Shown here: one piece after another, positions 3,392-35,600 of the stretch
Position numbering within the stretch: position 1 is the stretch's first letter
Layout of the letters: every line of letters begins with the position of its first letter
From: a virus
DNA length: 64,000 nt
Reading direction: 5' to 3' (one strand)
IMG/VR virus record: IMGVR_UViG_3300047548_000785
Coordinates: 3,700 to 67,699 of that record
Program-made: the position numbers and the translations under genes
The notes under the pieces: generated by a model
Database searches by the model: none
Told to the model about the DNA's origin: nothing
What the model saw: only the letters and a program-made list of their open reading frames with translations

Positions 3392-3484
3392 ATGGCTACT
3401 AAGTCAAATAAAAGAGACAACATGAATACGCCTGATGATGAATGGCTACCTGTTGGATATGATGCAGAAGAGGTCAACAAATGA
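3392..3484 (+). CDS. 30-aa peptide overlapping the endolysin start (ATGA)
   Basis: MATKSNKRDNMNTPDDEWLPVGYDAEEVNK; AGGAAG/GGA upstream; its stop overlaps the ATG at 3481. Confidence 0.5.
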   Translation: MATKSNKRDNMNTPDDEWLPVGYDAEEVNK

Positions 3485-5226
3485 GTTTGTGGTGGCCTGT
3501 AGATAATGTTAGAATTACTGGTGATTTCGCTGGATGGCCAGAGTTTTATTCGAAATATGGAATGAGAGGCCACAACGGAATTGATATTGGTGTTGGTGTA
3601 GGTACCCCAGTCTATGCCGCCGAAGCTGGCGTTATTCATTTTGAAGGATGGGGAAATAATAACGGATGGATGGGATCATCTGCTGGTATCTGTGTACTAA
3701 TTCGTCATGGCTGGGGTTACACTGGATATGCACACCTTTCTGAAACCCTTGTCAACAATGGTCAAAGTGTAGCAAAGGGTCAGCTTATTGGAAAGTCTGG
3801 TAACACTGGTCTTTCTACTGGTCCACACCTTCACTTTGAGACACTACCCCCAAGTCCAGACTGGAAAAATGGTTTTGCTGGTCGTGTAAACCCACGTAAT
3901 TATGGAATTGAGGCTCGTGGATCAAGTGGCGGTGGTGGTGCAATGACAGCACAACAGCGTCAGGTAGGCAGCGAACCAGTTAATCGTCGCCTAGACCCAA
4001 ATACTTCACGTGCACCTATTCCAGAGCAACTTGCTCCAGGTGACGTAGGAAACTTTAATGGATGGATTCGTGGAGAATCTGTTAATGGAAATAATGTTTG
4101 GTTCCGTGGTATTTCTGGAAACTGGTTCTGGTCTGGAGGATTTACCTCACAGTCTACAGCTGGTCTTACAGATCTTAATCCTGCACCAGCACCAGCACCT
4201 ACAAACCCAGCAGAAAGAGTTGTTGGAAGCGTTTCTGTAAGAAAACGTCCTACGCCTGCAACCTCCGGTGCTATTCTTGGAGAAATTCCTGCAAACACTA
4301 AGGTTGTTTTTGATGGATGGGCTGCAGGAGAAACTGTTGATGGAAACAACTTGTGGTATCACTCAGCAGAAGGATGGTGGTCCTGGTCTGGTGCATACAC
4401 CAAAGTTGCAAAGGATGGACTTAAGGATATGACTCCTAAGCCAACTCCAACACCAACGCCCACACCGACTCCAACGCCAACTCCTACCCCAACACCGAGT
4501 GGTCGTAAGCCAGTAAGTCAAACAACTCCAAACTGGGATATGAGTAGTTCAGACGCTCCGTCATCTTATCCAAGACCTACGGCAAAGAAAAGCAGTATTG
4601 TTTTCCCGTCTAACATTGTAGAACGGAAAGATCCTGCCAGTCCAAATGGATACACTGTTGGTCGTCCAGATCCTAAAGGTCCAAACCATATTGTTTTGCA
4701 TCATGCAGCGACAACTTCGTTATCTGGAGCAATCAATACTTTGCGAGGTACTAATGGTGCACCTACTGCAAACTATGTTGTTAAAGATAATGAGCTTGTA
4801 TCTATGGTTTCCGAAGAAGATACAGCGTGGACAAATGGCAGGTGGACATCTAACACATACTCAGTTACATTTGAAATGATTAATGAGTCTGGTTCTGGAT
4901 CAACATGGCAGCCACCATCAAAGGCTACATGTGAGACAACGGCATGGGCAATGGCAAGAGCAGCACAGAGATGGAATATTGAGCTACCACTCGAATATGG
5001 CATCAATGTGTTTGGACATAAAGATGTTTCAAAATCTGCGACAGCTTGTCCAGGAAATCTAGATGTAAAAGCGGTTGTAGCAAGAGCTAATGAAATTATC
5101 AAAACTACTCCAGCACCTACACCAACACCTAGTAATAATACCGACAAAAAGAAAATTGCAGATGCTCTAGATATTATTCAAGATAAAATTGGTGAAATTT
5201 CAAGCATTCTACGAGAAGAGAAGTAA
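3481..5226 (+). CDS. Modular endolysin: M23 peptidase, two SH3b-like repeats, Pro-Thr linker, Amidase_2
   Basis: HNGID/YAHL/PHLHFE; two GExVxGNNxW repeats; IVLHH...FE...GHKD...ACPG zinc amidase motif; directly upstream of a holin. Confidence 0.92.
   Translation: MSLWWPVDNVRITGDFAGWPEFYSKYGMRGHNGIDIGVGVGTPVYAAEAGVIHFEGWGNNNGWMGSSAGICVLIRHGWGYTGYAHLSETLVNNGQSVAKGQLIGKSGNTGLSTGPHLHFETLPPSPDWKNGFAGRVNPRNYGIEARGSSGGGGAMTAQQRQVGSEPVNRRLDPNTSRAPIPEQLAPGDVGNFNGWIRGESVNGNNVWFRGISGNWFWSGGFTSQSTAGLTDLNPAPAPAPTNPAERVVGSVSVRKRPTPATSGAILGEIPANTKVVFDGWAAGETVDGNNLWYHSAEGWWSWSGAYTKVAKDGLKDMTPKPTPTPTPTPTPTPTPTPTPSGRKPVSQTTPNWDMSSSDAPSSYPRPTAKKSSIVFPSNIVERKDPASPNGYTVGRPDPKGPNHIVLHHAATTSLSGAINTLRGTNGAPTANYVVKDNELVSMVSEEDTAWTNGRWTSNTYSVTFEMINESGSGSTWQPPSKATCETTAWAMARAAQRWNIELPLEYGINVFGHKDVSKSATACPGNLDVKAVVARANEIIKTTPAPTPTPSNNTDKKKIADALDIIQDKIGEISSILREEK
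4441..4497 (+). repeat. (Pro-Thr)9 linker with varied codons
   Basis: CCN ACN tandem units inside the endolysin. Confidence 0.9.
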
Positions 5227-13179: not shown

Positions 13180-16100
13180 ATGGCAATAATAACTTATCTT
13201 AGCAACAATTCAACGCCTGATTCTGGTAGTTCTTGGGCCTCTAGCAACGTTTATTCACTATGGTATCCAAACGTTGCTGTTGCCGCTGCACACGATGGTA
13301 CATTTCCAATTTATGTAAATTATGCTGCTCTTAAAATACGTTCAAATGTTTCTTCACCAGCACTTATTACATCTCTTTTGTTAAAAAATAATACTAGTAC
13401 CTGGTTATCAGATAATAGCCCAACAGCACCATACAGCACAACTACAACATCTGAAATTGGTTTTGGTTTTAGCGATGTTGTTTTTCTTAATACTGATGGC
13501 TCTTTAAAGGTTGAAGTTAATTCAAGTGCTCCGCCCTCACTATACTTTAATACCGCATCGGTTACTGGTGCTGCTATCAAAAATGCAACTACAGATGCTA
13601 CTATTTTTTCAGATAAAACTATTTTCGGATATTTAAACTATATTGCTGTACCCTCTTCACCAGGAATTACAAATATATCTAATATAACAAATGATGGATT
13701 TTCTTTTAAAGTTTCTGTTCCCTCTTTTACAGGGGGTGAATCTATTAATGGATATCGTATTCAAATAGCAACTGACACAGCATTTACACAAAATCTTCAG
13801 ACTCAAGATATAAGTTATGATGGAACAAATACAACAGTTAATGTAACTGGTAAAAATCCAAATACTAGATACTACATTAGAGCTTTTGCAAAAAATCCAT
13901 TGTGGAGTTTTGCAGGTAAAGGATCTCAGTGGTCTAATACTGCAACTGTTCAGACAGCAATCTATCTCCCAACATTTTCAGATAGTTCAATTGTTTCAAG
14001 TGCCTATACTGGATTGTCGTACTCAGATCAGGTTACTGCCACTTCCAGTGCTTTAGCTGGATCAATTACTTATGCAGCAACTGGACTACCAAGTGGTCTA
14101 TCTATTAGCTCTTCTACTGGAGCAATTACTGGTACCCCAACAACAGTTGGTAATTCAGCAATTACATTTACTGCAACAAATACAGATGGACAAACAGTAA
14201 GTCCTACAAGATATCTTTTTATTACAGATTCAGCAACACTTTGGTTTGGTCCCAACCTTTTAGATACGGCAAAAACTGGATTAAACTATACTGCAAATGT
14301 CTATGCTTTTAATGCTACCTCATACTCCGTATCTACTGGTCAATTGCCAAGCGGTATATCATTAAATACAACAACTGGAGAAATATCTGGAAAGACTTAT
14401 GACATTGGCAGTTTTACTTTTGACATTACCGCCAACATTTCGACAGACGGTGGTTCTGGATCTATTACAAAAACATTCACCATGACTTCTGAAAAGTCTA
14501 ACGTTTCCGCTGGTCTCGTATCAACACCATCAAATCTTTATGCAGAACGTGTTTATGCAGAGCAGCCATTAGCACTTTGGTCTATGGATGAAAACGTAGA
14601 TTATATTTCTAAAATCTCTGAAAATCAACGAGACATGGCACAGAACTGGGATGTTCTTAATGGAGATGCGGCAGAGTTCAGTGATGTAACATTTACACCA
14701 CCAATGGCAAGTATGATAAATATGGTTACGGTTCCAGACTACGAGGAAAGTCCAGACGCAGTTCTTGAAGCTACCAACTTAGTAACTAATCCATCGATGG
14801 AAACAGGTGGAGCCAGCGGTATTGTAATCAGGGAAAATCTTATTCAAAACCCAACAATGGACGGTATCGTTCCAAGTTCTTCTCAGTCAATAGCAACTAA
14901 TTTAGCTACAAACCCCAACATGGTAACTACATCTGGAACCACCACTATTCGTGAAAACCTCCTAGCAAATCCATCTTTTGAAAAGGTTGCTAATGGAACA
15001 GATATTGTTAGGTCAAACCTTATTAGCAATCCTAGTTTTGAATTAAATACAAGTGGTTGGACAAACTTAGCAAATACTTTGTTATCAAGAGTTCCTGATA
15101 ATTCTATTGTTGGATCTTATGTAGCAAAACTAGAGGCTACTGCAGGTGGTACAGGATCTAATTTTTTTGCCGCCAACACAGGATCTGCTCTCAATTTAGT
15201 AGATCCTGATAAAACCTACACATTTTCTGTATATGTAAAATCAACAACAGCAAAAACAATTGGAATTCGTCATGCTTGGGTAGATGCCTCTCAAAATGTA
15301 ATTGGAAGTATTAACACTTTTTCTGCAACTAGCTTGTCTGCAAATACGTGGACTCGTATTTCTACAACTCAAACTGCCCCAGAAAATGCATACAGAGTTT
15401 CTGTTGGAGTTATTGGTAGTGCATCAGAGTCTTGGGCACCAGGAGATATTATTTATATAGACGGAGCAATGCTTGAAGACAGCCTTGTTGCTACAACTTA
15501 TTTTGACGGCAGTCTACAAGATTCTTTATCTGAGTATTATTCATGGACTGAAACAGAGCACAACTCTCCATCAATTCAAACAGCTCAATTAGTTACAACA
15601 CTAACAAATATTGCACCTAACCCAAATATGGCAGAAACTGATGGGGTAGTTGATGTTAAGCGTAATCATGCAAATAATCCAGTTGCAAAGTATGTTGGTG
15701 GGTCAGTGGACCCAGCTAAGCAAGTTTCAAGAACAAACCTCGTAGCCAACTCAAGTTTTGAAACAGTAACAATAGGCTGGCAAGCAATTGGAACCGCAAC
15801 ATTGGCTCCTGATGGCGGTCAGTTCTTTGATGGACTGTCATCAGCCAAGCTAACATGTTTAGCAGTAGGTGACGGTATCGAACAAGTTCTTGGTGAAAGA
15901 CCTACTGTATCTCCAAACACACCATATACATTGTCTGTATATGTAAAGGGTGAAGCTGGAAAAAAGGCTATCTTGTTGCTGGATTGGTTTGATGCAAGCG
16001 ATACTTATATCAGTCAAGTCAGCAGCTCTTCCTACACTATGACTGGTGATTGGCAAAGAATGTACTTTTTTGGTGCAATATCACCAAATAACGCAGTTAC

Positions 16101-19100
16101 AGCAAGTATCAATGTTAGAAATTTAACTTCTGGTGCACACACATTTTATCTAGATGCAGTCTTATTTGAAAGTAGTCGCATATTAGAGCCATATTTTAAT
16201 GGAAATACCACCGATCAGCTAGGTTTTGAGTATGTTTGGGCCGACATAGAAAATAACAGTGTTTCTAGACAGCTATCAGAGCAAATAGTAATTAAAGAAA
16301 ATAAAATTTACAATCCATCATTTGAAAATGGTTTCTTTGGTTGGTCTGATGTTGGTATAAACTTCTACGGGTTTGAACTAAGTTCTGATGTAGCACCTGG
16401 GCTTTCTACAAAATCACTTCAAGTAATTGCAGGTGCAAACTCAGGTCTTAAGAATCTTGGAATTCAGGCACTACCATCAACTCAATACACTTTTTCTGCC
16501 TGGATTAAAGGTCCTGCTGGAAAAACATCTATATTGGGTGTACGCTACTATGATAGTTCAATGACCGAACTAAGCTCTCCCTTCCCTAACTTTTCTTCCT
16601 CTATTCCATTTACAGGAGATTGGCAAAGAGCATACTTTACCTTTACTTCTCCAGCAAATACTGCATACGTAGAACCAGAAATTCAGGTACAGGATATATC
16701 ACTAACAACATTCTACGTTGATGATGTGATGCTTGAAGAAGGAAGTACTCTTAATAATTACTATGATGGAAACAGTGTTCCTAGCGAAGGGTTGAGATAC
16801 AAGTGGAGTGATGAAATTAATGATAGTACTTCTATTATGTACGCACTTCCAGCCAAAGGATTTGACTGCTCAGGAACTCAAAGCATAATGTATGCATCTA
16901 ATGATGCTACAACAGAAAGTTTTGCACGGTATTATGCCACAAGTACCCACAACAATATTATTGAAGTTGGAGCAGTATCGGGTCTAGCTATTGGAACACA
17001 ATACTTGTTTAAGGCACAAGTTAGATCATCCACATCACGCACATTTGACTATTTAATTGGTGCAAATGGACAAGTTAGCGTTGCACTAGTTCCATATACA
17101 TGGAAAGAAGTTAATATGCTATATACTGTATCAGCAACAAATACAAATGTTCAGCTAACACTTCCAAGCATGGTTGCCGGAGAAACGTTTGATATTAAAG
17201 AAGTTCTTGTTGAAAAAACATCTGGATTCTCACGGCCATACTTTGACGGTGATTTTGTATCCACAGACTCAGACCTTACATATGGTTGGAGAGGCGAACC
17301 ACATGACTCTAATTCAGTACTTTTGGGAGCTAAAGTATATGGTGTTGCAGATGACAATGGACTTGATATTCGTGCATTTAGATCAGAAGCATGGTCTGCA
17401 AATGGAACAAGGTCTTTGCGAATTATTAACTATGGCGGATTTAATAATGATGGTATAACAATAGCTAGTGTCGATCAAACTACATATGGATCGTTAAATA
17501 TTCCACAGCTACTTCCAGGTAAAACATATACGGTAAAGGCGGTAGCTAGACTAAATGGTACAGTATCTGGATCTACATATTCTCGAAGCATCTGTTTTGC
17601 AACTGGATCAACTATTGTTTCTTATGTACAGGCACCAAATACTATTGGAACACACGAGCTTAGTCTTACATTTACAGTACCTGCCGATTCTACCAACCAC
17701 AGAATATTTTTAACTAGCTCTGGATATAATAATCCATACAACTATGATATGTGGTGGGATAAGCTGTTGATTGTTCGTGGAGAATATGATGGACTATACT
17801 TTGATGGAGACACAGCAAATGAAGAAGATCGATACTATTCTTGGGCAGGGGAGCCAAGCAAGAGTGTTAGTTATAGGCAGGGACTTGGACTTTATGGTTG
17901 GACTGGCGTAAATGCTGCACCAGTTTATGAGCTAGGACATTCACGATCAGGAACAGCATCAGCATTTATGCGTGTATCAGACAACGTTGAATACCCACGA
18001 ATGACTAGTGACAATGTCCCTGTGCTTAGTGGTTTTTCATATTCTGCCTCAGCATACATGCAATTGGCATCAGATACCAATTCGCGTATCAGCATTGACT
18101 GGAAAGATTCTGCAGGTGTTTTAATTTCACGTTCAGAAACATCAATTGCCACTTCTCCTACAGGAAGAATTTCGGTATCTGGAGTTGCTCCAGATGGTGC
18201 TACTCAGGCATCAGTTTCCCTAGGGTTTGATGATGGAACTATTGCGTCAACTCAGCTCAGTTTTGACGACGTTTTATTTGAACAATCCCCAACTATTAAT
18301 AGTTATTTTGATGGAGATTCGCTATCTGTTGATGGTCTAAGTGAAGGCACAATTGACTGGTCTGGTGATGACCATGCTTCATCATCTACAGTTATTGAGG
18401 CTGGAATAAATGATTTTAGCTCTATTTTAGGAAAAACATCTACATACTCCATTTCATCAGTTGATTTTAGTGGTGGTAAAGCTGCAAGGGTATTTCTTAG
18501 ATCATCATCTCAAACAGACATAGCAGTAAATACAGTTAATACTACTGAAGGCAATACTTATACTTTATTGATAAAAGCAAGAGCTAATTCAAGATCTCAA
18601 ATAGTATATCCACAGATTAGTGGAGACGTTGGTGATCCTGTATTGTTGCAACAAGGTGTATGGACTGAGATTAGAATGATTGGAACAGCGGTTACTGGTG
18701 CTACAGAAACAGTTGGATTACGTCTATTAAATTCTATGGGTCATCAATTTGGAGACACAATTGACATTGATTATGCAATGGTTGTTGATGGAGAATATTA
18801 TAATGGATACTTTGATGGCTCTATATCTAATTCTGAACTAGACGGAACTGTATCTTGGTTTGGAACACCAAACAATAGCATAAGCACACTAAGTGGACCA
18901 GAAATTTATTTTTGGAATGGCTATAATGGTGGAATTGTATCAAGCTCAAGCACAGTAAGCAATGATAGCGGATATTCTGCTCTAGTCTTAACAAGTGCAT
19001 CAGATGAGGGTATTACATCTTCTCCAATGCCTACAGTTATAGGTGAGCCATATACATTCTCTGCATATATCTATGTGAAAAAACAAGAAAACGTTACAAT

Positions 19101-22100
19101 TCAAATTGATGAAGCTTCAAGGCAGGTAGTGGTACAACCAAATACCTGGACCAGGGTTTCACATTCACGCATAGCCTCAAGCACTACGCATACAGTACGA
19201 CTCTTACTTGCTAACGGTGGCGGTATTATGTTTGTTGATAATGCACTATTTGAAAAGGGTTCCTCTGTACTCAGCTACTTTGATGGTGAGACAACCAATC
19301 CAGATGCCGACTTAGAGTATGACTGGTCTGGTACTGCACATCAATCATCAAGTACGCTTTCTGGTACCGCAGTGGCTGGCTATACAAATAACGGAAGTGT
19401 TGCACTAATCCAATCTTCGGTTTGGGATTCAACAGGAAGCAAATCTATGAGAATGGTATCGCTTTCAAAATCTAATGAATCTGGTACTAGTGGTGCTCTT
19501 TATAACATAAGTACTTTGACTAATGGTAAGAAGTATACGGCAATGGTTAAGTATAGACTAACATCCCCACTCGTTGGTGATAAAAATCCAGAATATCTAA
19601 CATTGCGTGCTGCTAATTCGAGTGGAACGACAGTTGTTCGCACATCAAATGGATCAAATACAACTGGAGTACACGAGCTGAAACTTGTATTTACAAAAAC
19701 ATCAGAGATTACGGCAATACATTTATCTAGCGGTGTAGGGTCTGGTGCTGGAACAGTATGGTGGGACGACTTCTTAATTGTTGAGGGCGAATACAATGGA
19801 ACATATTTTGACGGGGACAGCGTAGACTCTGAAGTTATTGGTGAAAATGTTTTTGAATGGACTGGTACACCACATGCTTCTGCTTCTACAAAATCAATAC
19901 TACAAACAAGTTTACTAACAACAATGGTTAGCCCTTCGCTCGGATCTGTTGAAGACTTCAATGCTGAGATGGAATCAATTGCTTTTTCAGCATGGATATA
20001 CCCATTTGCAAGAATTATCGATGCCTATATTGGATACAGATATACAGACGTGAACGGTATCGATATCGAACATATTCAAAAATTTGATATTAATCAGCAA
20101 GATACCTGGAGCTTAATTTCCTATTCGTTTAAACTACCAACACAGTTTACAAATCTAAGAATGGTAATTAAAACTCTGGTTGCCCTTCCCACCAAAACAC
20201 CAACCACAGATAGCTACAAGTTCTTGGTACATGGAATGACAGCTGGACAATGGTCTGAATCATTCTTTACACGTTCTTTAGGAGCTACCGTTCAAGAACT
20301 TACAGATGAAATTGCTGTTTCTGGTACTGGAGTTTTTGCTAATGCATATGGTTTGCAACGGAATAATGGATATTATATGGCATACGATAACCGATTGGCT
20401 GCTCGTAATACTGGTATTCCAATGGTATATGGTGCTACAAATAGTACTAAGATTACACCAGCACCAACTGCTGGGGACCCATCATTTGTTTTTCCAGGGC
20501 TAGGTTTTATGAATGCTTCTGGACAGTATGCAAATCTTACATTAGAGTTGTGGCTTAAAATTCAGTCTTCAGCAACTCAACCAAGAAGAATATTGGGACC
20601 AGTAGCAGAAGGATCAACAGACGGACTATACGTTAATGATGGTCTTTTAGTTCTTAAAGTTGGAGAAAGTTTTGACTCCTACTTTATTAAAGAATGGGAT
20701 CGACCAATGTTAGTTGCAATTAAGCTAAAAGGTGATTCAGCACTACTATCAATTAATGGTGAAGAAGTTATTAGCTTAACGCTAGATCCATCGCAAGTGG
20801 AATTTCCAACAGAATTTATTACAATAGATAACGTAATCAAAAAACAAGACTTTATTGGTATTTATGCATATGAAGATGTGCCATCAATTGAGATTGACTG
20901 TATTGGAATTTATCCATATATTGTTCCAGATATTGTTGAAAAGCGACGTTTTGTCTACGGCCAAGGTGTAGATGTTCCAGAAGCAATTGTTGGATCTGGA
21001 TCAGACTCAACTGTTACTATTGATTATCCAGTTGCAAACTATGCAAAAAATTATCTATATCCAGATATTGGTAGATGGAACCAGGGTATTAACGAAAACC
21101 TAGAAATTAACAATACATCTATTAGCTCACCAACCTATGAACTACCAACACTATTCTTTTCTAATGAGTCAGAGTCTTCGTGGTACTCGGATATTGAGTC
21201 AATCCAAGTTTCTGGTCTAGAGCCATTTATTAATCTTAAACCTAATGTACTTTATGATGAAGCAGTAAGTGTTTGGGATAATACCGAAGCATATATATTA
21301 TTTGATTCAATTAGTACTTTGTCACAAGATCTTGAAGCTTTTTATGGTATATTTATGCCAAACTATTCTGCTGGTGTCAAGCAAACGCTTTTCTTTATAG
21401 AAGATGAAGAGTCGAGCAATTACTTTGAGATATTTATTAATGAAGACAATGAAATTGTATATGAGTTAGCAGTTGCTAATTCTGATACTGCCGGTGGGTA
21501 TGACAAAGAAGTTATTTATACATATCAATCAGAAGAGAGTACTATGATTCCAGTCGGAATTAATATTGATAGTTTTGCAAATACTTATGGCGGAAACGTT
21601 CTTGACTTCTTTGGCAAAGTGTCAACACTTAAGTTTTATGTTGCAGGAAGTCGGTTCCTTGAAAACACATTTGATGGAAACATTGTTTCTGTTGGATTCT
21701 GTACAGCTCGAAACCTACAAAAAATTCTAAGTCTATTCAATACAAATGGAACTATTATGACTTTGGAAGACTACGAGTCTGATGTACGCTTGTATGATGG
21801 TGGTAATGTTGTTACAACAATTTGGGAGGCAACAGTTGATGCAGGTAACACATTCTTTGGATCATCGTCTTCTGGATTTATTTCAATAGTAGACGGTGGA
21901 AGCCCATTTGGTATTCTAACAACTGCTGCTCAACGTCATACCGCTAGCTATACCTTATTGCCTAAGAACTACCTTGGCAAGTTTATGCTGGATATTGCTA
22001 CTAATGGGTACTGGCAAGACCATGTACCATTGGGATATTTTGGTAAATATGTAAATGCTGGTGATGGAACCGAATATTATGAATTAGATTTCTTGCAGTT

Positions 22101-23394
22101 TAATATTTCATACCCAAATATTCACAAATATTTAGAGGGCATTTATGATACAGAAAATTCAGTTGTTAAAACATTTGTGTCTTTCGACTATATGCAAGAT
22201 GACGCATCAATTGACATTGTTGGATATACAGATGGCAATAATGAGCCAAGACTAACTAGGCTCGAACCTGCACCTAGCTCTAATGTTATTACACCAGGAT
22301 CAAACTGGGCAGAAACATTGTATGAAATTACTAATGATACAGTTATTTATCCACCATCAGATACCGACTTTAACGACCTAGCTTTGGTATTGCATGTTGA
22401 AGTTATTTCAAATGGCATTATGGAGAGTCCAGTAGAAATTGAGTCTTTGCAAATAGCATCAACTGCACTTAATTCGTTTGTGCCAAATCCGGTGGGTACT
22501 AAAAATGGAAAAGAAATCTTCCCCTACCTACGCTCTTCTGGTTACTTTGACTATAAGGGTAAAAACCCATACTCAATCTATAAAGGAACGTCTCCATACC
22601 TTTACCTCACAGGTAATAGCGGAATTAAACTACTTGACTTTAAAGAAAATGCCATTGATAGAGGAATCAGTATTCCAATTAATACTGAAAAAACACCATA
22701 CTATAAGTTATCCGCCATTCAGCTTTCAGCTAGATATGATGCTGAAACTTTTCCAAATAGAGTTGTTGAAGTCATGGAAGTTGAAAGCAAAGAAGGAACC
22801 TTTAAAATTTATATGGCTCCAGAAGATGGTAGAGGAACGCGAGCAAGATTGTACCCAGTTGATGCACAAACTGGACTACCATATAATAATCTAGTTTTCT
22901 TTGTTAATGGCATACCAGTAACAGAGGCAATTGTTGAGATCAATTCCTGGTTTATGATAGCAATTGTGTTTAATTCTGCATTAGACTTTAGCTCAGCTAG
23001 TGGTGCTATTCGAATGACTGGACCACTCCTATTCAATAATCTTAGTTACTACAAAACTAGAGAAAGTGACGAGGTTAATAGGTCTACATACCGTAAATGG
23101 TTTGGTGTCTCTGTTATCGATGGTGAAGGAGTGCCTTGGGATTACTGGAAGAGTGGGGTACCAGAAATTGGTGTGCCGCAATCAGAATGGGCAATTCAAC
23201 CATTTACGTGGAGAACAGTGCTTTATGCAACACTTCTTCCATCCGCCGCTGTTGACGGAGAAACGCTTTATCGTAAGTTTACGGGTACCAATAGGTTTAC
23301 AGTAGACACAGACAGCCTACTTCGTATTCGTAACTATAAGTATTCTGCTTATAACGCTACTGGGTGGCAAACAAAAGTTACTTCACCTGTATAA
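13180..23394 (+). CDS. Giant virion protein, 3404 aa: FN3, two putative Ig (He_PIG-like), nine CBM4/9-like modules, LamG-like region
   Basis: LPSGLSISSSTGAITGTPT-type Ig repeats; nine NxxxN(P/S) and nine Y(F/Y)(D/N)G motifs; TLELWLKI LamG-like segment; RBS AGGAG. Confidence 0.85.
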   Translation: MAIITYLSNNSTPDSGSSWASSNVYSLWYPNVAVAAAHDGTFPIYVNYAALKIRSNVSSPALITSLLLKNNTSTWLSDNSPTAPYSTTTTSEIGFGFSDVVFLNTDGSLKVEVNSSAPPSLYFNTASVTGAAIKNATTDATIFSDKTIFGYLNYIAVPSSPGITNISNITNDGFSFKVSVPSFTGGESINGYRIQIATDTAFTQNLQTQDISYDGTNTTVNVTGKNPNTRYYIRAFAKNPLWSFAGKGSQWSNTATVQTAIYLPTFSDSSIVSSAYTGLSYSDQVTATSSALAGSITYAATGLPSGLSISSSTGAITGTPTTVGNSAITFTATNTDGQTVSPTRYLFITDSATLWFGPNLLDTAKTGLNYTANVYAFNATSYSVSTGQLPSGISLNTTTGEISGKTYDIGSFTFDITANISTDGGSGSITKTFTMTSEKSNVSAGLVSTPSNLYAERVYAEQPLALWSMDENVDYISKISENQRDMAQNWDVLNGDAAEFSDVTFTPPMASMINMVTVPDYEESPDAVLEATNLVTNPSMETGGASGIVIRENLIQNPTMDGIVPSSSQSIATNLATNPNMVTTSGTTTIRENLLANPSFEKVANGTDIVRSNLISNPSFELNTSGWTNLANTLLSRVPDNSIVGSYVAKLEATAGGTGSNFFAANTGSALNLVDPDKTYTFSVYVKSTTAKTIGIRHAWVDASQNVIGSINTFSATSLSANTWTRISTTQTAPENAYRVSVGVIGSASESWAPGDIIYIDGAMLEDSLVATTYFDGSLQDSLSEYYSWTETEHNSPSIQTAQLVTTLTNIAPNPNMAETDGVVDVKRNHANNPVAKYVGGSVDPAKQVSRTNLVANSSFETVTIGWQAIGTATLAPDGGQFFDGLSSAKLTCLAVGDGIEQVLGERPTVSPNTPYTLSVYVKGEAGKKAILLLDWFDASDTYISQVSSSSYTMTGDWQRMYFFGAISPNNAVTASINVRNLTSGAHTFYLDAVLFESSRILEPYFNGNTTDQLGFEYVWADIENNSVSRQLSEQIVIKENKIYNPSFENGFFGWSDVGINFYGFELSSDVAPGLSTKSLQVIAGANSGLKNLGIQALPSTQYTFSAWIKGPAGKTSILGVRYYDSSMTELSSPFPNFSSSIPFTGDWQRAYFTFTSPANTAYVEPEIQVQDISLTTFYVDDVMLEEGSTLNNYYDGNSVPSEGLRYKWSDEINDSTSIMYALPAKGFDCSGTQSIMYASNDATTESFARYYATSTHNNIIEVGAVSGLAIGTQYLFKAQVRSSTSRTFDYLIGANGQVSVALVPYTWKEVNMLYTVSATNTNVQLTLPSMVAGETFDIKEVLVEKTSGFSRPYFDGDFVSTDSDLTYGWRGEPHDSNSVLLGAKVYGVADDNGLDIRAFRSEAWSANGTRSLRIINYGGFNNDGITIASVDQTTYGSLNIPQLLPGKTYTVKAVARLNGTVSGSTYSRSICFATGSTIVSYVQAPNTIGTHELSLTFTVPADSTNHRIFLTSSGYNNPYNYDMWWDKLLIVRGEYDGLYFDGDTANEEDRYYSWAGEPSKSVSYRQGLGLYGWTGVNAAPVYELGHSRSGTASAFMRVSDNVEYPRMTSDNVPVLSGFSYSASAYMQLASDTNSRISIDWKDSAGVLISRSETSIATSPTGRISVSGVAPDGATQASVSLGFDDGTIASTQLSFDDVLFEQSPTINSYFDGDSLSVDGLSEGTIDWSGDDHASSSTVIEAGINDFSSILGKTSTYSISSVDFSGGKAARVFLRSSSQTDIAVNTVNTTEGNTYTLLIKARANSRSQIVYPQISGDVGDPVLLQQGVWTEIRMIGTAVTGATETVGLRLLNSMGHQFGDTIDIDYAMVVDGEYYNGYFDGSISNSELDGTVSWFGTPNNSISTLSGPEIYFWNGYNGGIVSSSSTVSNDSGYSALVLTSASDEGITSSPMPTVIGEPYTFSAYIYVKKQENVTIQIDEASRQVVVQPNTWTRVSHSRIASSTTHTVRLLLANGGGIMFVDNALFEKGSSVLSYFDGETTNPDADLEYDWSGTAHQSSSTLSGTAVAGYTNNGSVALIQSSVWDSTGSKSMRMVSLSKSNESGTSGALYNISTLTNGKKYTAMVKYRLTSPLVGDKNPEYLTLRAANSSGTTVVRTSNGSNTTGVHELKLVFTKTSEITAIHLSSGVGSGAGTVWWDDFLIVEGEYNGTYFDGDSVDSEVIGENVFEWTGTPHASASTKSILQTSLLTTMVSPSLGSVEDFNAEMESIAFSAWIYPFARIIDAYIGYRYTDVNGIDIEHIQKFDINQQDTWSLISYSFKLPTQFTNLRMVIKTLVALPTKTPTTDSYKFLVHGMTAGQWSESFFTRSLGATVQELTDEIAVSGTGVFANAYGLQRNNGYYMAYDNRLAARNTGIPMVYGATNSTKITPAPTAGDPSFVFPGLGFMNASGQYANLTLELWLKIQSSATQPRRILGPVAEGSTDGLYVNDGLLVLKVGESFDSYFIKEWDRPMLVAIKLKGDSALLSINGEEVISLTLDPSQVEFPTEFITIDNVIKKQDFIGIYAYEDVPSIEIDCIGIYPYIVPDIVEKRRFVYGQGVDVPEAIVGSGSDSTVTIDYPVANYAKNYLYPDIGRWNQGINENLEINNTSISSPTYELPTLFFSNESESSWYSDIESIQVSGLEPFINLKPNVLYDEAVSVWDNTEAYILFDSISTLSQDLEAFYGIFMPNYSAGVKQTLFFIEDEESSNYFEIFINEDNEIVYELAVANSDTAGGYDKEVIYTYQSEESTMIPVGINIDSFANTYGGNVLDFFGKVSTLKFYVAGSRFLENTFDGNIVSVGFCTARNLQKILSLFNTNGTIMTLEDYESDVRLYDGGNVVTTIWEATVDAGNTFFGSSSSGFISIVDGGSPFGILTTAAQRHTASYTLLPKNYLGKFMLDIATNGYWQDHVPLGYFGKYVNAGDGTEYYELDFLQFNISYPNIHKYLEGIYDTENSVVKTFVSFDYMQDDASIDIVGYTDGNNEPRLTRLEPAPSSNVITPGSNWAETLYEITNDTVIYPPSDTDFNDLALVLHVEVISNGIMESPVEIESLQIASTALNSFVPNPVGTKNGKEIFPYLRSSGYFDYKGKNPYSIYKGTSPYLYLTGNSGIKLLDFKENAIDRGISIPINTEKTPYYKLSAIQLSARYDAETFPNRVVEVMEVESKEGTFKIYMAPEDGRGTRARLYPVDAQTGLPYNNLVFFVNGIPVTEAIVEINSWFMIAIVFNSALDFSSASGAIRMTGPLLFNNLSYYKTRESDEVNRSTYRKWFGVSVIDGEGVPWDYWKSGVPEIGVPQSEWAIQPFTWRTVLYATLLPSAAVDGETLYRKFTGTNRFTVDTDSLLRIRNYKYSAYNATGWQTKVTSPV

Positions 23395-23412: not shown

Positions 23413-23793
23413 ATGGACAAAATAATGAAGGGCCAAATTGGTAAAACTAAGATTCAGGTTATTGAAGAACCTTTCTCTAATGCAGGCTTATATATATGGG
23501 TAAAGCCAGATGGTAAGGCTTTTACTGGTGGAAATAATGACCCACTTTGTATTGAGTCAATGCGAGGAGATCAGTCTAAGATTGACGAACTAACAAAAGC
23601 TGCTGCCTATTATGGACAACCAGAAGGTCAGGCAGTGTTTTTCCCAAATCAAAGAATGGTTAGTGACGAAACACATAGCGAACAGGTTGATCGTATGGTT
23701 AACGGATTAATACCATCTGAAAATGACCTTGGTGCACTAATTGCAGCTAAAAAGACTATTGAGACATATGGAGCTGATGCATATAATGCATAA
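23413..23793 (+). CDS. Hypothetical protein upstream of the portal
   Basis: ORF track 23407..23793; ATG 23413 is 7 nt after TGGTATACT, so it is the likelier start. Confidence 0.75.
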   Translation: MDKIMKGQIGKTKIQVIEEPFSNAGLYIWVKPDGKAFTGGNNDPLCIESMRGDQSKIDELTKAAAYYGQPEGQAVFFPNQRMVSDETHSEQVDRMVNGLIPSENDLGALIAAKKTIETYGADAYNA

Positions 23794-25390
23794 TGACGGA
23801 TTAACTAGACTTGAAATTCCACTTAAATTGGATGACGTTATTGATGATGATACCAATAAGATTCTCGATCCATTTAATAAAACATGGGATGAAATTAAAG
23901 ATTACCATGGCCTAGACGTTAACTTTAAACGACGCAATACCAGAATCGCAAAAGCAGAGGCATCAGAAGCCTATCTAGATTCAGCTAGTGCAATTGACAG
24001 CGGTATTGATGGAGCCAAGTCTAAAAAGCTTAACCCAGGAGCTGTATATCGTAATGCTTATGGTATTTTTGATATCATTACACCACCCTATGATGTTTAT
24101 CAGCTTGCTGGATACTATGACACTTCCTTTGCTAATCACGCAGCTATTGACGCTAAGGTAGAAAACACTGTCGGACTAGGATATGATTTTACCGTTTCCG
24201 ATAAGACGATGCTAAAGCTTGAAATGAGTGAAAATAAAACTGCAGTTGAAAAGGCTAGAAAACGTATTGAACGTTTAAAAGTAGAACTCAGGGACTGGCT
24301 TGAAAGCCTTAATCAAGACGAGAGTTTTACAAGCATTATGGAAAAGGTTTACACAGATGTTCATTCTGTAGGAAATGGCTATATTGAAGTTGGTCGTAAA
24401 ATTAATGGAGAGATTGGATATATTGGTCATATCCCAGCAACAACTGTTCGTGTACGTCGCCTACATGATGGTTTTGTTCAAATGATTTCTAATAAAGTAG
24501 TTTACTTTAGAAATTTTGGGGCATCTAATCCAAACCCAATCACACAAGATCCACGTCCTAATGAGATAATCCACATTAAGGAATACTCTCCTCTTAATAC
24601 TTTTTACGGTGTACCAGATGTTATTGCTGCCATGCCTTCACTTCTGGGTGACGCACTTGCATCACAATATAACATTGATTATTTTGGTAACAAGGCAGTT
24701 CCTAGATATGTTGTTACACTAAAGGGTGCATCACTTTCTACAGAAGCAGAAGATAAACTATTTAAGTTTTTGCAAACCAACCTTAAGGGTCAATCCCACA
24801 GAACATTGTACATTCCTTTGCCAGGAGACTCTGACACCAATAAGGTTGAGTTTAAGATGGAACCGATTGAAAACGGTGTACAAGAAGGATCATTCCACAA
24901 CTATCGCCAACAGGTCCGTGATGATATTCTGATTGCCCATCAAGTACCATTATCTAAACTTGGTGGATCTGATTCTTCAGCAATTGCAGCTTCTTTAGCT
25001 CAAGATCGTACATTTAAGGAACAGGTTGCAAGGCCTGCACAGCGTAATTTGGAAAAAATTCTTAATAAGATTATTCGTGAAAAGACAGACATTCTAGATT
25101 TCAAGTTTAATGAGCTTACATTGACAGACGAAAATGTACAATCACAAATTCTAGAACGCTATGTACGTAATAAGATTATGGTTCCCAACGAAGCTCGTGA
25201 AGCAATTAACTTGCCACAACGTCCAGATGGTGACGAGCCAATGGAGATGTCTTCAAGACAAGCAGCAGATGCAACTGCAAACCAAATGCAAACACGTGAA
25301 CGTGATGCTGAAAGGTCTGCCAACCAATCTGATGGGGATGCCACTGTAGAAGGTCGCAATGCCCAGGGCGAGGGTCCTGCATCATCTTAA
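23786..25390 (+). CDS. Portal protein
   Basis: GNGYIEV, EIIHIKEY...YGVP, YFGNKAVP, AHQVP, MVPNEARE..NLP motifs. Start uncertain (track gives 23741). Confidence 0.92.
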   Translation: MHNDGLTRLEIPLKLDDVIDDDTNKILDPFNKTWDEIKDYHGLDVNFKRRNTRIAKAEASEAYLDSASAIDSGIDGAKSKKLNPGAVYRNAYGIFDIITPPYDVYQLAGYYDTSFANHAAIDAKVENTVGLGYDFTVSDKTMLKLEMSENKTAVEKARKRIERLKVELRDWLESLNQDESFTSIMEKVYTDVHSVGNGYIEVGRKINGEIGYIGHIPATTVRVRRLHDGFVQMISNKVVYFRNFGASNPNPITQDPRPNEIIHIKEYSPLNTFYGVPDVIAAMPSLLGDALASQYNIDYFGNKAVPRYVVTLKGASLSTEAEDKLFKFLQTNLKGQSHRTLYIPLPGDSDTNKVEFKMEPIENGVQEGSFHNYRQQVRDDILIAHQVPLSKLGGSDSSAIAASLAQDRTFKEQVARPAQRNLEKILNKIIREKTDILDFKFNELTLTDENVQSQILERYVRNKIMVPNEAREAINLPQRPDGDEPMEMSSRQAADATANQMQTRERDAERSANQSDGDATVEGRNAQGEGPASS

Positions 25391-32631: not shown

Positions 32632-35600
32632 ATGAGTGATATTGAATCCAATATTAATATTAATATTGACACCAGCAATGCTTTAGCAAATCTAAAAGCA
32701 TTACAGAGACAAATATCGCTCTTTCATACCTCCATGGCTAAAGGTGGTGCAGCCACCAATGCCGAGCTTGCTAGATTGCAGCAAAATCTTATCAATGGTA
32801 TTAACGCCACTGGTAACTTTGCTGCATCTATGCAAACTGTTCGTACCACCACCGAAACATTTACCAATGCATTAGAAAAGAACAAACTCTCGATGGGAGA
32901 GTATTTTAGATATGCTGGTAGTCAGGTAGGTGGCTTTAGACGACTATTCTCTAGCGAATTTGACACAATTGAAAAGGTAGCTAGAGAAAGAGTTAAAACA
33001 CTACAAACTCAATATATTAAGATGGGGCGTGATGCCAATGGTGCTATGCAGGCCATTGCTGTCAGGCCCCTATCTCTTGATATGCAAAATCTGGGAACAC
33101 AAACAGCAATCGCTGCCCAAAAACAACAAATCTTCAACCAGTTAATCAAACAAGGTTCTACAAACCTTCTTAACTTTGGTAAGAACACTCAGTGGGCTGG
33201 TCGCCAGCTTATGGTTGGTTTTACTATTCCATTATCAATTTTTGGTGCCACGGCTGCTCGTGAGTTTATGAAGATTGAGGAACAAACCCTTAAGTTCCAA
33301 AGAGTTTATGGCGACATGTCTACGCCAATCGAAGAAACTAATAAGATGGCCGATGCTATCAAGAACCTTTCTGGCGAATTTACACAGTATGGTATTGCTG
33401 TCGAAAAGACAATGGGGCTGGCTGCAGATATTGCTGCTATGGGTGAGCAAGGTGAAGATCTTCTTGCGTCTGTTCAAGAAACAACCAGACTATCAGTTCT
33501 TGGTGGGGTAGAGCAACAACAAGCACTAGAAGCTGTTACATCACTAACCAATGCATTTGGTGTATCTACTGAACAACTATCTGGAAAAATTAACTTTTTA
33601 AACTCTGTTGAAAACCAAACAATTACATCTATTGAAGATTTAACAGAGGCTATTCCCAAGGCTGGTCCAGTTGTACAACAGCTTGGTGGAGACCTTGAAG
33701 ATCTAACATTCTTCCTCACTGCTATGCGTGAGGGTGGAATTAATGCGTCAGAATCTGCCAACGCTCTCAAATCTGGTTTAGCATCTATGATTAACCCAAC
33801 CCAAGAGGCAAAAGATATGCTTATGGGACTTGGCATTAATCTAGAAGCAATTGTTAATGCAAATAGAGGAAACCCGTCTGCCTTTGTTGTTCAGTTTGCA
33901 CAAGCACTTGATACCCTAGATCCAACAGATAGAGCAAGAGCAATTGAACAGCTATTTGGTAAATTCCAGTTTGCTCGTATGTCTACACTATTCCAAAACG
34001 TAATTGCCGAGGGTAGCCAGGCACAAAGAGTTCTTGGACTTACTCAAGCCACTGCAGAAGAATTAGCAGTACTTGCAGATAGAGAAATGAAGCGTATTTC
34101 AGAATCTCCAATGTATAAGTTTAAAAAAGCTTGGGAGGATATGAAAGCTGCTCTGGCACCAGTTGGTGAGCAATTCCTTAAGGCTATTACTCCAATTATT
34201 GAATTTGGAACACAAATTTTAAATAAGTTTAACGAAATGAATGATGGTGCAAAAAGCTTTGTCATCATCTTAACTACAGCAGTAGCTGGAATTGGGCCAG
34301 TGCTACTGATGACATTTGGTTTGATAGCCAACGGTGTTGCAAACATTATTAAAGCTTTTGCTGCAATGAGCAATTTCTTTAATAGAGCTGGAAATTCTTC
34401 ACAAGTACTTGGTGAACAAACTAACTACATGACTCAGCAACAACTAGAGGCTGCGGCAGTAGCAGCATCTCTAAATCAAACGCACACTCAGCTAACTCAA
34501 ACATTTACATCAGAAGCCAGTGCTGTTAAGAGATTGTCTGCAGAGTATGAAAGGGCCGTTGCGGCCCAAGCTTTAATGCGTGGCCCAATCGTTTCTGGAG
34601 GCACCACTAAACGACCTAAGAAATACGCTAAGGGTGTTACGATGGTTCCAGGCAATGGCAATCGTGATACTGAGCCAGCAATGCTTACACCTGGAGAAGC
34701 AGTTATTCCAGCACCCATGGTTGAAAAATATGGTCCACTAATTGAGGGTATGATTGCAGGTTCGATTCCTGGCTATAACGGTGGCACTATGTCTGTAGGG
34801 CAAGCCAAGGATATCTCTGGACTTTATAGAGCACCAAGTGCCATTAAAGCACAAACACAAAAGATTGTCTGGGACACTCTAGAAGCAGAAATTAAGGCTA
34901 TTGAAGCTGCAGTTAAGGGTGCACCAGGAGTAACACAGTCAAAGATTAATAACCTCACACAAAAACAAGCTTCTCACATTGCACCAGATATTCAGCAAAT
35001 GCAAGCAGGTGGTCAAAACATTAATGTTAAAAATTGGAAGGCTGGAAACCTACAGGCTGATCTTGGTGGAATAAATAACTACCTTAATTCACTTGGTGAA
35101 AATTCTAAAGTCCTTGAAAACTTTAAGTCCTCACATATTGATGTTGCTGCCAAAGAACTGGGTATGTCTATGGCTGAAGTTGAAAAAGAATTAGATCTGT
35201 TAAAAAAGGGTATCCACCCAACTACCCGATCTGCTGGTAAGGTTTTGCAAAGGGTTGCAGCAACAGATCCTGGATACCAAGGCAAAGCTGTTAGTGCGGC
35301 AATGGGCGAAAGACTCAAGGGAAACTACTATGAAACATTAGCACAAAGATCATATGATCCTAAAAAAGATGAAGTTGTAGCTAAACAGGTTAAAACAAGA
35401 ATTGTTAAAATGCAAACCCTTTTGAATAATGCTGTAAGCGAGGGTGTCAATGAAGCTGCACAAAGTAAATCTCCGTCTCAACGTGCCAAAAAAGCTGGTA
35501 AAAATATTTCTGACGGAACAATTATTGGCATTAACGAGGGCATAGATGATGCTAAACGAGCAGGTCAGCGTATTGGTATGGCAGCAACAAGTGGTATGGT

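What the first reader, a model, noticed from the sequence alone, without database searches (positions are those of the whole stretch)
14773..19905. Matryoshka protein: nine CBM-like domains apparently nested inside one another
Seen: intact modules here open with NxxxN(P/S)SFE and close with Y(F/Y)(D/N)G...W.....S.S about 155-160 aa later. Openers O1-O9 lie at 14773, 14833, 14896, 14953, 15013, 15604, 15664, 15733 and 16297. Closers lie at 15499, 16192, 16759, 17239, 17797, 18304, 18808, 19276 and 19804. O1-O5 and O6-O8 are only about 20 aa apart, while the last six domain bodies have no opener. The order is a balanced bracket string: (((( () (( () () )) )))). Last-in-first-out pairing largely matches subtypes: the NPSME/NPNM openers O1, O3 and O6 pair with the three GEYxGxYFDG bodies, and the SFE openers pair with L(F)E...YFDG bodies. 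Inference: recursive insertion into the same loop after the first strand, up to seven deep, building a branched stalk in which each domain is completed by a strand up to ~1500 aa away. The block itself interrupts the host protein. I know of no described phage protein built this way.
Basis: partly seen in the sequence, partly recalled or inferred. Interest (0 to 1): 0.92.

Follow-up and report, generated by a model that had tools for sequence, protein, structure and literature searches.

The report
Nested sugar-binding domains in phage protein
A giant phage structural protein carries nine sugar-binding jelly-roll domains that appear to be inserted one inside another like nested brackets, a layout that also turns up, unremarked, in many phage tail proteins.

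Summary
ORF 13180-23394 (3404 aa) has nine strand-1 motifs (NLxxNPSFE) and nine CBM_4_9-type bodies ending in YFDG..W.G..S.S, in the order ((((()((()())))))). Six bodies lack only strand 1, and six spare strand-1 motifs are stacked upstream.

Nested insertion is the best reading (about 0.7), on four grounds:
- Spare openers and opener-less bodies match in number in 69 of 126 apparently whole relatives, and within one in 103. Shuffled counts give a mean of 29 matches.
- On one baseplate-hub scaffold, each extra body comes with one extra 20-aa opener.
- A compatibility score learned from intact domains ranks last-in-first-out pairing 3rd of 720 orders for this protein.
- A docking prediction puts opener O7 on the last strand of body B4, the predicted partner, with score 0.70 against 0.00 for controls.

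Evidence against:
- AlphaFold2 left O6 and O7 unplaced in cis.
- Only one of the six long-range pairs has contact-level support.
- One family carries 7-9 unmatched openers.

Recursive same-fold insertion is published for RNA polymerase Si3. I found no description of it for phage CBMs. I class it as a new variant of a known kind.

The parts
13180..23394 (+). Giant ORF (3404 aa, P0001). N-terminal fn3/He_PIG Ig domains, then the nested CBM block at residues about 511-2243, then a C-terminal 1160 aa of unknown fold.
14776..14802 (+). O1, spare strand-1 motif NLVTNPSME (res 533-541). Predicted partner is body B9.
   Evidence: PSSM 31.3
14836..14862 (+). O2, spare strand-1 motif NLIQNPTMD (res 553-561). 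Predicted partner is B8.
   Evidence: 23.2
14899..14925 (+). O3, spare strand-1 motif NLATNPNMV (res 574-582). Predicted partner is B7.
   Evidence: 24.2
14956..14982 (+). O4, spare strand-1 motif NLLANPSFE (res 593-601). Predicted partner is B6.
   Evidence: 32.8
15016..15042 (+). O5, strand 1 attached to its own body B1 (res 613-621).
15049..15594 (+). B1, intact CBM body with YFDG closer (res 624-805).
   Evidence: 133 bits
15607..15633 (+). O6, spare strand-1 motif NIAPNPNMA (res 810-818). Predicted partner is B5.
   Evidence: 17.9; not confidently docked
15664..15690 (+). O7, degenerate spare strand-1 motif NHANNPVAK (res 829-837). Predicted partner is B4.
   Evidence: 11.1; docked on the last strand of B4
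15736..15762 (+). O8, strand 1 attached to B2 (res 853-861).
15769..16287 (+). B2, intact innermost CBM (res 864-1036). Only 30% identical to P0007 (segment 851-1036, which includes O8).
   Evidence: 10-residue block means of pLDDT mostly 88-96, two blocks 76 and 79; Z 17.4 to CBM22 1h6x
16300..16326 (+). O9, strand 1 attached to B3 (res 1041-1049).
16336..16851 (+). B3, intact innermost CBM (res 1053-1224). 37% identical to P0007 (segment 1037-1225, which includes O9).
16852..17337 (+). B4, opener-less body (res 1225-1386).
17350..17892 (+). B5, opener-less body, WWD/GEY type (res 1391-1571).
17890..18405 (+). B6, opener-less body (res 1571-1742).
18412..18906 (+). B7, opener-less body, GEY type (res 1745-1909).
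18907..19374 (+). B8, opener-less body (res 1910-2065).
19372..19908 (+). B9, opener-less body, WWD/GEY type (res 2065-2243).
14719..14748 (+). Tentative tenth, outermost opener-like motif NMVTVPDYEE (res 514-523), 19 aa before O1. A similar motif (NAVTVPDYEE) stands at the same place in P0007.
   Evidence: PSSM only 3.2: weak
19966..20178 (+). Tentative tenth, divergent body without YFDG (res 2263-2333 match body HMM positions 49-118).
   Evidence: 13.6 bits: weak

Best explanation
The block is a tree of nine CBM4/9/16/22-type beta-jelly-rolls, possibly ten, built by recursive domain insertion. Each module consists of a short pre-strand, strand 1 (NLxxNPSFE), the rest of the sandwich, the last strand, a YFDG turn, a Y.W.G strand and an S.S strand. 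Strand 1 packs against the last strand and the pre-strand packs against the S.S strand, so the two ends of every module lie side by side. Child modules sit in the loop between strand 1 and strand 2 of the parent. Read last-in-first-out, the tree is B9 > B8 > B7 > B6 > {B1, B5 > B4 > {B2, B3}}. O1 to O4 are strand 1 of B9 to B6, and O6 and O7 are strand 1 of B5 and B4. Inner modules can fold first, and each outer one closes only when its body has been made, up to 1534 residues after its first strand. The likely result is a doubly tethered, branched array of glycan-binding modules whose whole chain enters and leaves its host protein at one point. The most variable modules (B2, B3) sit at the tips, where they probably set host-surface specificity. 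What is shown: the sequence anatomy, the CBM fold, and the statistics in relatives. What is predicted: the O7-B4 contact. What is inferred: the other five long-range pairs, the folding order and the adhesin role.
For: 1. Anatomy. The nine bodies align from strand 2 to the S.S strand. Opener-less bodies follow the preceding closer within 0-4 residues. Pfam CBM_4_9 scores 96.5 bits against a cut-off of 25.9. In the AlphaFold2 model, B2 with its attached opener matches CBM22 1h6x at Z 17.4, rmsd 3.0, 151 residues aligned, starting at the chain's first strand.
2. Stoichiometry. Of 258 relatives with at least one body, 177 passed the filters (all bodies YFDG-type, at least 12 aa before the first body, at least 15 aa after the last). 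Of those, 126 had any spare opener or opener-less body. Counts were equal in 69, within one in 103, and 68 were balanced, properly nested strings. Shuffling the counts among proteins gave a mean of 29.3 equalities and a maximum of 47 in 10000 shuffles. Whole ORFs read from DNA give (), (()), (()) three times, and a 9:9 string ((((())))).
3. Natural series. On one baseplate-hub scaffold, forms with 1, 2 and 3 CBMs differ by one 15-20 aa opener for the added opener-less body. The scaffold fold is identified.
4. Pairing. A compatibility score was learned only from intact domains. Over 71 proteins it gives a last-in-first-out total of -885.0, against -1373.9 for first-in-first-out and a permutation mean of -1188.5 (sd 64.1). 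None of 1000 permutations reached the last-in-first-out total, and it beat the permutation mean in 48 of 71 proteins. For this protein, with itself and P0007 left out of training, it ranks 3rd of 720 orders.
5. Docking (ESMFold2). The O6-O7 peptide (res 800-851) was docked against B4+B5 (res 1226-1560). ipSAE was 0.70, 0.70 and 0.00 (median 0.70), and the best of 3 controls scored 0.00. That mark was reached by 58 of 80 solved complexes and 2 of 110 mismatched pairs. The runs agree in at least 22% of contacts, and the partner's pLDDT is at least 27. The confident interface is res 821-836 (pre-strand plus O7) against res 1339-1346 (last strand of B4), YFDG 1354-1357 and res 1375-1385 (S.S strand). 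This is the canonical CBM geometry on the partner that last-in-first-out pairing predicts. Because solved CBM folds exist, the pass may partly reflect likeness to them.
6. A relative, P0163, with layout (). AlphaFold2 with a collinear 28-row alignment gives mean pLDDT 81.2, and the spare opener region 231-260 scores 84-92 although an intact domain separates it from its body.
7. Identity to the only close relative, P0007, falls towards the inside of the nest: B9 76%, B8 65, B7 65, B6 59, B5 68, B4 51, B3 37, B2 30.
Against: AlphaFold2 on res 800-1560 left O6 and O7 unstructured (model residues 1-45, pLDDT about 31-33). It still folded B4 and B5 at pLDDT 50-92 without them. Even the attached O9 region scored below 50, so the alignment was poor there. 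One of the three docking runs scored 0.00. O6 was not confidently placed on B5. The docking was in trans, so it cannot tell cis from inter-subunit pairing. Contact-level support exists for only one of six long-range pairs, and the rank of 3 of 720 is driven mainly by the O7-B4 cell. For P0163 I could not read which domain the spare opener touches. The fold search aligned CBM chains to model residues 254-257 through 396-468, that is mainly the inner domain, and gave no row spanning the spare opener together with the outer body. Counter-examples exist. Six proteins (the P0019/P0006 family) carry 7-9 unmatched openers with conserved C-termini, and in L005 the next ORF is unrelated. Four other proteins (P0208, P0213, P0238, P0254) show two extra openers after their last recognised body; in the three I examined (P0208, P0213, P0254) the tail reads opener-opener-divergent CBM, which leaves one opener unmatched. 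MementoMori gp33 ends in a single extra opener (MementoMori). Twenty-three of the 126 proteins are off by two or more. The proteins are related, so the statistics overstate independence.
Confidence: 0.7

Rival explanations
1. Strand exchange between copies. The spare openers complete opener-less bodies of a neighbouring subunit, or of another protein, so the array is a beta-strand zipper for assembly rather than a nest within one chain.
For: The docking pass was obtained with separate chains. Two homolog families look complementary. One ends in 7-9 unmatched openers plus the first strands of a body. The other starts at a conserved Met in mid-body and has 7-9 opener-less bodies in excess.
Against: In this protein openers and bodies balance within one chain, 9:9, as they do in 69 of 126 relatives. 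Nothing here shows oligomerisation. The two families were not found on one contig, and in L005 the next gene is unrelated.
Confidence: 0.12
2. Autonomous stalk. The 20-aa NLxxNPSFE units are a linker or stalk repeat in their own right, and opener-less bodies fold alone as sandwiches with one strand fewer. The equal counts would then be a by-product of duplication history.
For: AlphaFold2 folded B4 and B5 at pLDDT 50-92 with O6 and O7 disordered. Openers without any matching body exist in the P0019/P0006 family and before some terminal CBMs.
Against: Counts of spare openers and opener-less bodies track each other far better than shuffled counts do (69 equalities against a mean of 29.3 and a maximum of 47). 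The 1-, 2- and 3-domain series adds one opener with the opener-less outer body. Openers are most compatible with the last-in-first-out body. O7 docks as strand 1 of B4. Opener-less bodies lack exactly the strand that solved CBM16/22 structures start with.
Confidence: 0.1
3. The openers do complete the bodies, but in another order (first-in-first-out or mixed), giving a threaded rather than a nested topology.
For: Counts alone cannot tell the orders apart, because the spare openers nearly always all precede the opener-less bodies.
Against: First-in-first-out scores worse than random pairing (-1373.9 against a permutation mean of -1188.5, with last-in-first-out at -885.0). O7, not O6, docked on B4. 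Non-nested pairing would force chain crossings (inference).
Confidence: 0.03

Closest known systems
CBM insertions in 'evolved' Dit and Tal proteins of siphophages of Gram-positive bacteria
   Same: A CBM4/22-type jelly-roll is inserted into a structural tail protein and displayed for cell-wall glycan binding (passages seen in PMC8540738, PMC13232314 and 10.1101/2025.01.07.631744). The relative P0163 is a gp27/Mu gp44-like baseplate hub with CBMs inserted: the hub fold aligns over model residues 1-758 with only about 290 residues aligned, Z 20.
   Different: The passages I read describe single insertions or CBMs placed one after another along the chain, not CBMs inserted into CBMs. Here the nesting is up to seven deep, and the host protein lies next to the portal gene and is not a recognised Dit or Tal.
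Si3 insertion of cyanobacterial RNA polymerase beta', with recursively inserted HABAS (SBHM) domains
   Same: Domains of one fold are inserted into other domains of the same fold, repeatedly. [quoted passage not shown]
   Different: The fold, protein and biology are all different. Here the insertion point is always the loop after strand 1. The spare strands pile up as a 20-aa repeat. The number of layers varies widely between relatives.
Tandem CBM arrays of glycoside hydrolases (for example the CBM22-1/CBM22-2 tandem, 4xup)
   Same: The fold is the same, and several copies act on glycans. Structural matches to the modelled B2 are Z 16.8-17.4.
   Different: Those arrays are beads on a single string, each domain contiguous in sequence. 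Here six of nine domains are discontinuous.
Actinobacteriophage 'minor tail proteins' (Arthrobacter phages Mimi gp188, Molivia gp23 and Wollypog gp89; Microbacterium phage MementoMori gp33)
   Same: They share the same module, the same motifs and the same bracket layouts: (((())))), (), (()) and ()(.
   Different: They are 24-36% identical only, from high-GC hosts, and have no more than 8 bodies. Their records carry a name only, and I found no account of their domain topology.

Membership tests
CBM_4_9 (PF02018) / CBM4-9-16-22 beta-jelly-roll superfamily | Sequence match to the family profile above its curated cut-off | tested here: met
   96.5 bits against a cut-off of 25.9, 4 stretches, best at 1041-1170. 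Weak direct hits to CBM16 chains 2zez and 3oea, E 2e-4 to 1e-3, aligned from the chain's first strand NLIVNG....
CBM_4_9 (PF02018) / CBM4-9-16-22 beta-jelly-roll superfamily | Jelly-roll fold superposable on solved CBMs | tested here: met
   Predicted B2 (model 50-206) against 1h6x CBM22: Z 17.4, rmsd 3.0, 151 aligned. Against CBM4-2 4bj0: Z 17.1, rmsd 2.0, 143 aligned. Only B2 filled the hit list, so the other bodies rest on sequence alignment to it.
CBM_4_9 (PF02018) / CBM4-9-16-22 beta-jelly-roll superfamily | Binds carbohydrate in a cleft lined with aromatic residues | not testable with these tools
   No ligand or residue analysis was done. The adhesin role is an inference.
Evolved Dit/Tal-type CBM insertion in a phage tail protein | The CBM interrupts a recognisable tail structural fold | tested here: inconclusive
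   Met for the relative P0163 (hub fold split around residues about 233-604). For the window protein the flanks have no assigned fold. The only hints are a weak opener-like motif at res 514 and a weak partial body at 2263-2333.
Evolved Dit/Tal-type CBM insertion in a phage tail protein | The protein is part of the tail tip or baseplate | not tested
   The gene lies after tail-fibre-like ORFs and before portal, protease and capsid genes, and is separated from the tape measure and minor tail genes. No virion data are available.
Recursive same-fold domain insertion (as in RNA polymerase Si3) | An inner domain lies between two secondary-structure elements of an outer domain of the same fold, repeatedly | tested here: met
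   Met at sequence level: a balanced bracket string of depth 7, with bodies lacking only strand 1. At contact level only O7-B4 is supported, and by prediction.
Recursive same-fold domain insertion (as in RNA polymerase Si3) | Confirmed by an experimental or confident whole-chain structure | tested here: not met
   AlphaFold2 on res 800-1560 left O6 and O7 at pLDDT about 31-33. No solved structure of such a module was found.

The most novel reading that the evidence does not exclude
The NLxxNPSFE stack may be a general beta-strand zipper. Openers and opener-less bodies need not lie in one chain, and phages may use multi-strand complementation to lock two virion proteins, or copies of one, together. 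The P0019/P0006 family (7-9 spare openers, ending in an opener plus the first strands of a body) and the P0152/P0004 family (starting at a conserved Met in mid-body, with 7-9 bodies in excess) would be the two halves of such a lock. The window protein would be the fused, single-chain form.
Probability: 0.15. Interest if true: 0.85.

Novelty: new variant of a known kind. Interest (0 to 1): 0.66.

Why it matters
If the nesting is real, this is a simple modular rule for building branched, doubly tethered arrays of glycan-binding domains from one insertion point. The rule is to add one 20-aa strand upstream and one body downstream. It appears in many phage tail and hub proteins that are currently labelled only 'minor tail protein'. 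That would have several consequences. Domain annotation would change, because six of the nine domains here are discontinuous and would be mis-cut by any domain parser. It would give an extreme natural case for protein folding, with a first strand waiting up to about 1500 residues for the rest of its domain. It would point to the innermost, most variable modules as the likely host-range determinants. It would also suggest a scaffold for displaying several binding modules from one loop.

Tried and rejected
1. Close relatives. Megablast of the gene against 50,697 phage records found no match. The IMG/VR scan with the block found none. The 5.8-billion-protein search found one close relative only, P0007, at 59% identity over the searched block 520-2250 (69% in the whole-length alignment). 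I could therefore not compare orthologs lacking the block.

2. First detectors. Regex detection of closers double-counted. A short opener HMM missed O7. Both were replaced by a PSSM.

3. It does not generalise and was dropped as evidence. In passing, Met at the F position is commoner in spare openers (48 of 185) than in attached ones (19 of 359).

4. The hypothesis that the excess-opener and excess-body families are adjacent halves of one gene. In L005 the ORF 2 nt after P0019 is an unrelated fibre-like protein. Further scans found no contig with both families. This stays unresolved.

5. AlphaFold2 of res 800-1560 gave no support for cis placement of O6 or O7. I treat this as uninformative rather than negative, because the alignment was mis-registered: my own MAFFT trial aligned P0007 at 28% identity over this segment, against 59% in BLAST over the whole block, and the attached O9 region also scored low.

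6. Reading contacts of the spare opener in the P0163 model from fold-search ranges failed. All CBM rows began at the inner domain (model residues 254-257) and ended at 396-468.

7. I did not run it. A profile score is additive over positions and cannot tell matched from mismatched pairs. I used a pairwise compatibility score instead. For P0007 that test was uninformative (rank 59 of 120), because one degenerate opener fell below threshold and shifted the pairing.

8. Streptomyces phage BoomerJR has the nearest portal (47% identity), but no giant gene lies before it.

9. Literature. Eight full-text searches and passages of five papers gave no description of CBMs nested in CBMs in phage proteins. 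The library holds open-access papers only, and supplements were closed, so this is not proof of absence.

10. Earlier notes of this scan gave nothing.

Full report
**What is there.** The finding lies in one intact ORF, 13180-23394 (+), of 3404 aa. Its neighbours are phage structural genes: tail-fibre-like ORFs upstream, then portal, maturation protease and capsid protein directly downstream, then a 2886-aa tape measure and a 1836-aa minor tail protein. The portal is 47% identical to those of 131-kb Streptomyces phages, yet the window has about 39% G+C. Pfam sees fn3 and He_PIG Ig domains at the N-terminus and CBM_4_9 in the block (96.5 bits against a cut-off of 25.9). PHROGs sees 'minor tail protein' and the CBM part of evolved Dit proteins.

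- The bracket string is ((((()((()())))))), with depth 7.
- The nine bodies align with one another from the 'GW' strand to the S.S strand.
- The six opener-less bodies follow the previous closer with 0-4 residues between HMM envelopes, so they have no room for a first strand of their own.
- The opener is strand 1 of the fold. Solved CBM16 chains begin with the same motif, and the modelled B2 with its opener superposes on CBM22 and CBM4 from their first residues (Z 17.4, rmsd 3.0, 151 aligned for 1h6x).
- An opener PSSM gives 669 hits in 157 proteins at threshold 8, against 7 and 1 in reversed and shuffled sequences. All nine openers here score at least 11.1.

**Relatives.** A tblastn of the block hits 53 phage records, all actinophages: Microbacterium 38, Arthrobacter 9, Brevibacterium 3, Streptomyces 3. 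Nearly all the listed hits fall in genes annotated minor tail protein. A search of 1.84 billion representatives with one intact module gave 1457 proteins at E up to 0.001. With two further searches I held 258 proteins with at least one body.

**Counts of openers and bodies.**
- I kept proteins in which all bodies have the YFDG closer, at least 12 aa precede the first body and at least 15 aa follow the last. That left 177 proteins, with 81 dropped as another subfamily or apparently truncated.
- Of the 177, 126 have any spare opener or opener-less body.
- Counts are equal in 69, differ by one in 34, and differ by two or more in 23. Sixty-eight are balanced, properly nested strings.
- Shuffling the counts among proteins gives a mean of 29.3 equalities and a maximum of 47 in 10000 shuffles.
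- In several of the minus-one cases I inspected by eye, a degenerate or start-truncated opener fell below threshold.
- ORFs read stop-to-stop from DNA give (), (()), (()) in three loci, and a 9:9 string much like the window's in an IMG/VR contig.
- The proteins are related to one another, so these figures overstate independence.

**A natural series.** One family shares a scaffold that the fold search identifies as a gp27/Mu gp44-like baseplate hub. The hub aligns over model residues 1-758 with about 290 residues aligned, Z 20, so the hub itself is split by the insert. On this scaffold:
- Twelve aligned members have one CBM.
- Three have two, laid out (()).
- One has three, laid out (()()).

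The two-CBM forms differ from the one-CBM forms by one extra 19-20 aa opener upstream and one extra body of about 170 aa downstream. The three-CBM form keeps the spare opener and the outer body of its closest two-CBM relative and has a second intact inner domain.

**Which opener goes with which body.** I found the 20 most covarying pairs of opener-strand and body columns in 542 intact (attached) domains, then scored spare openers against opener-less bodies.
- Over 71 proteins with at least two such pairs, last-in-first-out pairing totals -885.0.
- First-in-first-out totals -1373.9.
- Within-protein permutations average -1188.5 (sd 64.1), and none of 1000 reaches the last-in-first-out total.
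- Last-in-first-out beats the permutation mean in 48 of 71 proteins.
- For the window protein, with itself and P0007 left out of training, last-in-first-out ranks 3rd of 720 orders, mostly because of the O7-B4 cell.

The signal may be physical contact or common descent of an opener and its body from one intact domain. Either origin is what insertion predicts.

**Structure predictions.**
- AlphaFold2 on res 800-1560 (O6, O7, O8+B2, O9+B3, B4, B5) gave mean pLDDT 73.4 and pTM 0.42. O6 and O7 were unstructured (about 31-33), and B4 and B5 were folded at 50-92. The attached O9 region was also below 50, which points to a poor alignment there. This gives no support in cis.
- The complex tool (ESMFold2) was given B4+B5 and the 52-aa O6-O7 peptide. 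It scored ipSAE 0.70, 0.70 and 0.00 (median 0.70), against 0.00 for the best of three controls. That mark was reached by 58 of 80 solved complexes and 2 of 110 mismatched pairs. The runs agree in at least 22% of contacts, and the partner's pLDDT is at least 27.
- The confident interface joins res 821-836 (pre-strand VVDVKR plus O7) to the last strand of B4 (res 1339-1346), its YFDG (1354-1357) and its S.S strand (1375-1385). O7 thus takes the place of strand 1 on the partner that last-in-first-out pairing predicts, and the pre-strand pairs with the closer. This explains why every module ends in the conserved Y.W.G..S.S extension: it brings the two ends of a module together, which an insertable module needs.
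- O6 was not confidently placed on B5. The pass may owe something to the model's knowledge of CBM folds, and being in trans it cannot separate cis from inter-chain pairing.
- AlphaFold2 on the two-CBM hub protein P0163, with a collinear alignment, gave mean pLDDT 81.2. The spare opener region scored 84-92, although an intact domain lies between it and the outer body. I could not read its contacts.

**Evidence that does not fit.**
- Six proteins (P0019, P0155, P0156, P0006, P0106, P0157) have arrays such as opener-opener-body repeated, 7-9 unmatched openers and a conserved C-terminus. In the one contig I could fetch, the next ORF is unrelated.
- Five others (P0002, P0152, P0153, P0004, P0005) start at a conserved start codon (Met or Val) in mid-body and have 7-9 bodies too many.
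- The numbers of these two families, and the split body, are complementary. That suggests pairing in trans, but I could not place them in one genome.
- Four proteins (P0208, P0213, P0238, P0254) show two extra openers after their last recognised body. In the three I examined the tail is opener-opener-divergent CBM, leaving one opener unmatched; MementoMori gp33 ends in one extra opener.

**Further pattern.** Identity to P0007 falls from the outside of the nest to the inside: B9 76%, B8 65, B7 65, B6 59, B5 68, B4 51, B3 37, B2 30. The opener stack stays at 81% and B1 at 78%. The tips B2 and B3 are therefore the fast-evolving parts, as expected for specificity determinants. A tenth, outermost layer is possible: a weak opener-like motif at res 514, present in similar form in P0007 (PSSM 3.2), and a partial divergent body at 2263-2333 (13.6 bits). 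This is not established.

**Comparison with what is known.**
- CBM insertions into Dit and Tal proteins are well described, but in the passages I read they are single or sequential (PMC8540738, PMC13232314, 10.1101/2025.01.07.631744).
- Recursive insertion of one fold into itself is published for the Si3 element of cyanobacterial RNA polymerase (PMC11515920, passages).
- Eight full-text searches found no account of CBMs nested in CBMs in phage proteins. The library is open-access only, and supplements were closed.

**Verdict.** Nested insertion is the best-supported reading (0.7), and it is widespread rather than unique to this protein. I class it as a new variant of a known kind, with interest 0.66. 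An experimental structure or cross-linking data are needed to settle it.

Noticed in passing
homologs P0019, P0155, P0156, P0006, P0106, P0157 and P0002, P0152, P0153, P0004, P0005; locus L005:4353-11794: Two complementary families. One ends in 7-9 unmatched strand-1 motifs plus the first strands of a body, with a conserved C-terminus. The other starts at a conserved Met in mid-body with 7-9 opener-less bodies in excess. This may be one nest split over two polypeptides. In L005 the gene right after P0019 is an unrelated fibre-like ORF.
   Followed up: partly
L001 (Arthrobacter phage Mimi gp188), residues about 250-395 of the protein: An insertion of about 145 aa sits inside the closer of the first body, between YFDG and the FTYGW strand. 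This would be a second permissive insertion site. I did not identify the inserted domain.
   Followed up: no
homologs P0163, P0167, P0191, P0170 and twelve one-CBM relatives: A gp27/Mu gp44-like baseplate hub scaffold carries 1, 2 or 3 CBMs inserted at one point (hub fold aligned over model residues 1-758 with about 290 residues aligned, Z about 20).
   Followed up: partly
all homologs (script): Met replaces Phe in NPSFE far more often in spare openers (48 of 185) than in openers attached to their body (19 of 359). Unexplained.
   Followed up: no
window 23741-25390 and the whole window: The portal is 47% identical to those of 131-kb Streptomyces phages (BoomerJR, Yaboi), but the window has about 39% G+C, and those phages lack a giant gene before the portal.
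   Followed up: partly
window 32632-41292 and 42665-48175: A very long tape measure protein (2886 aa) is followed, after a 468-aa ORF, by an 1836-aa ORF matching a minor tail protein PHROG. I did not examine either for the same modules.
   Followed up: no
window 3481-5226: A 581-aa ORF combines an M23-type peptidase-like N-terminus with an amidase/endolysin-like C-terminus, judged by PHROG names only.
   Followed up: no
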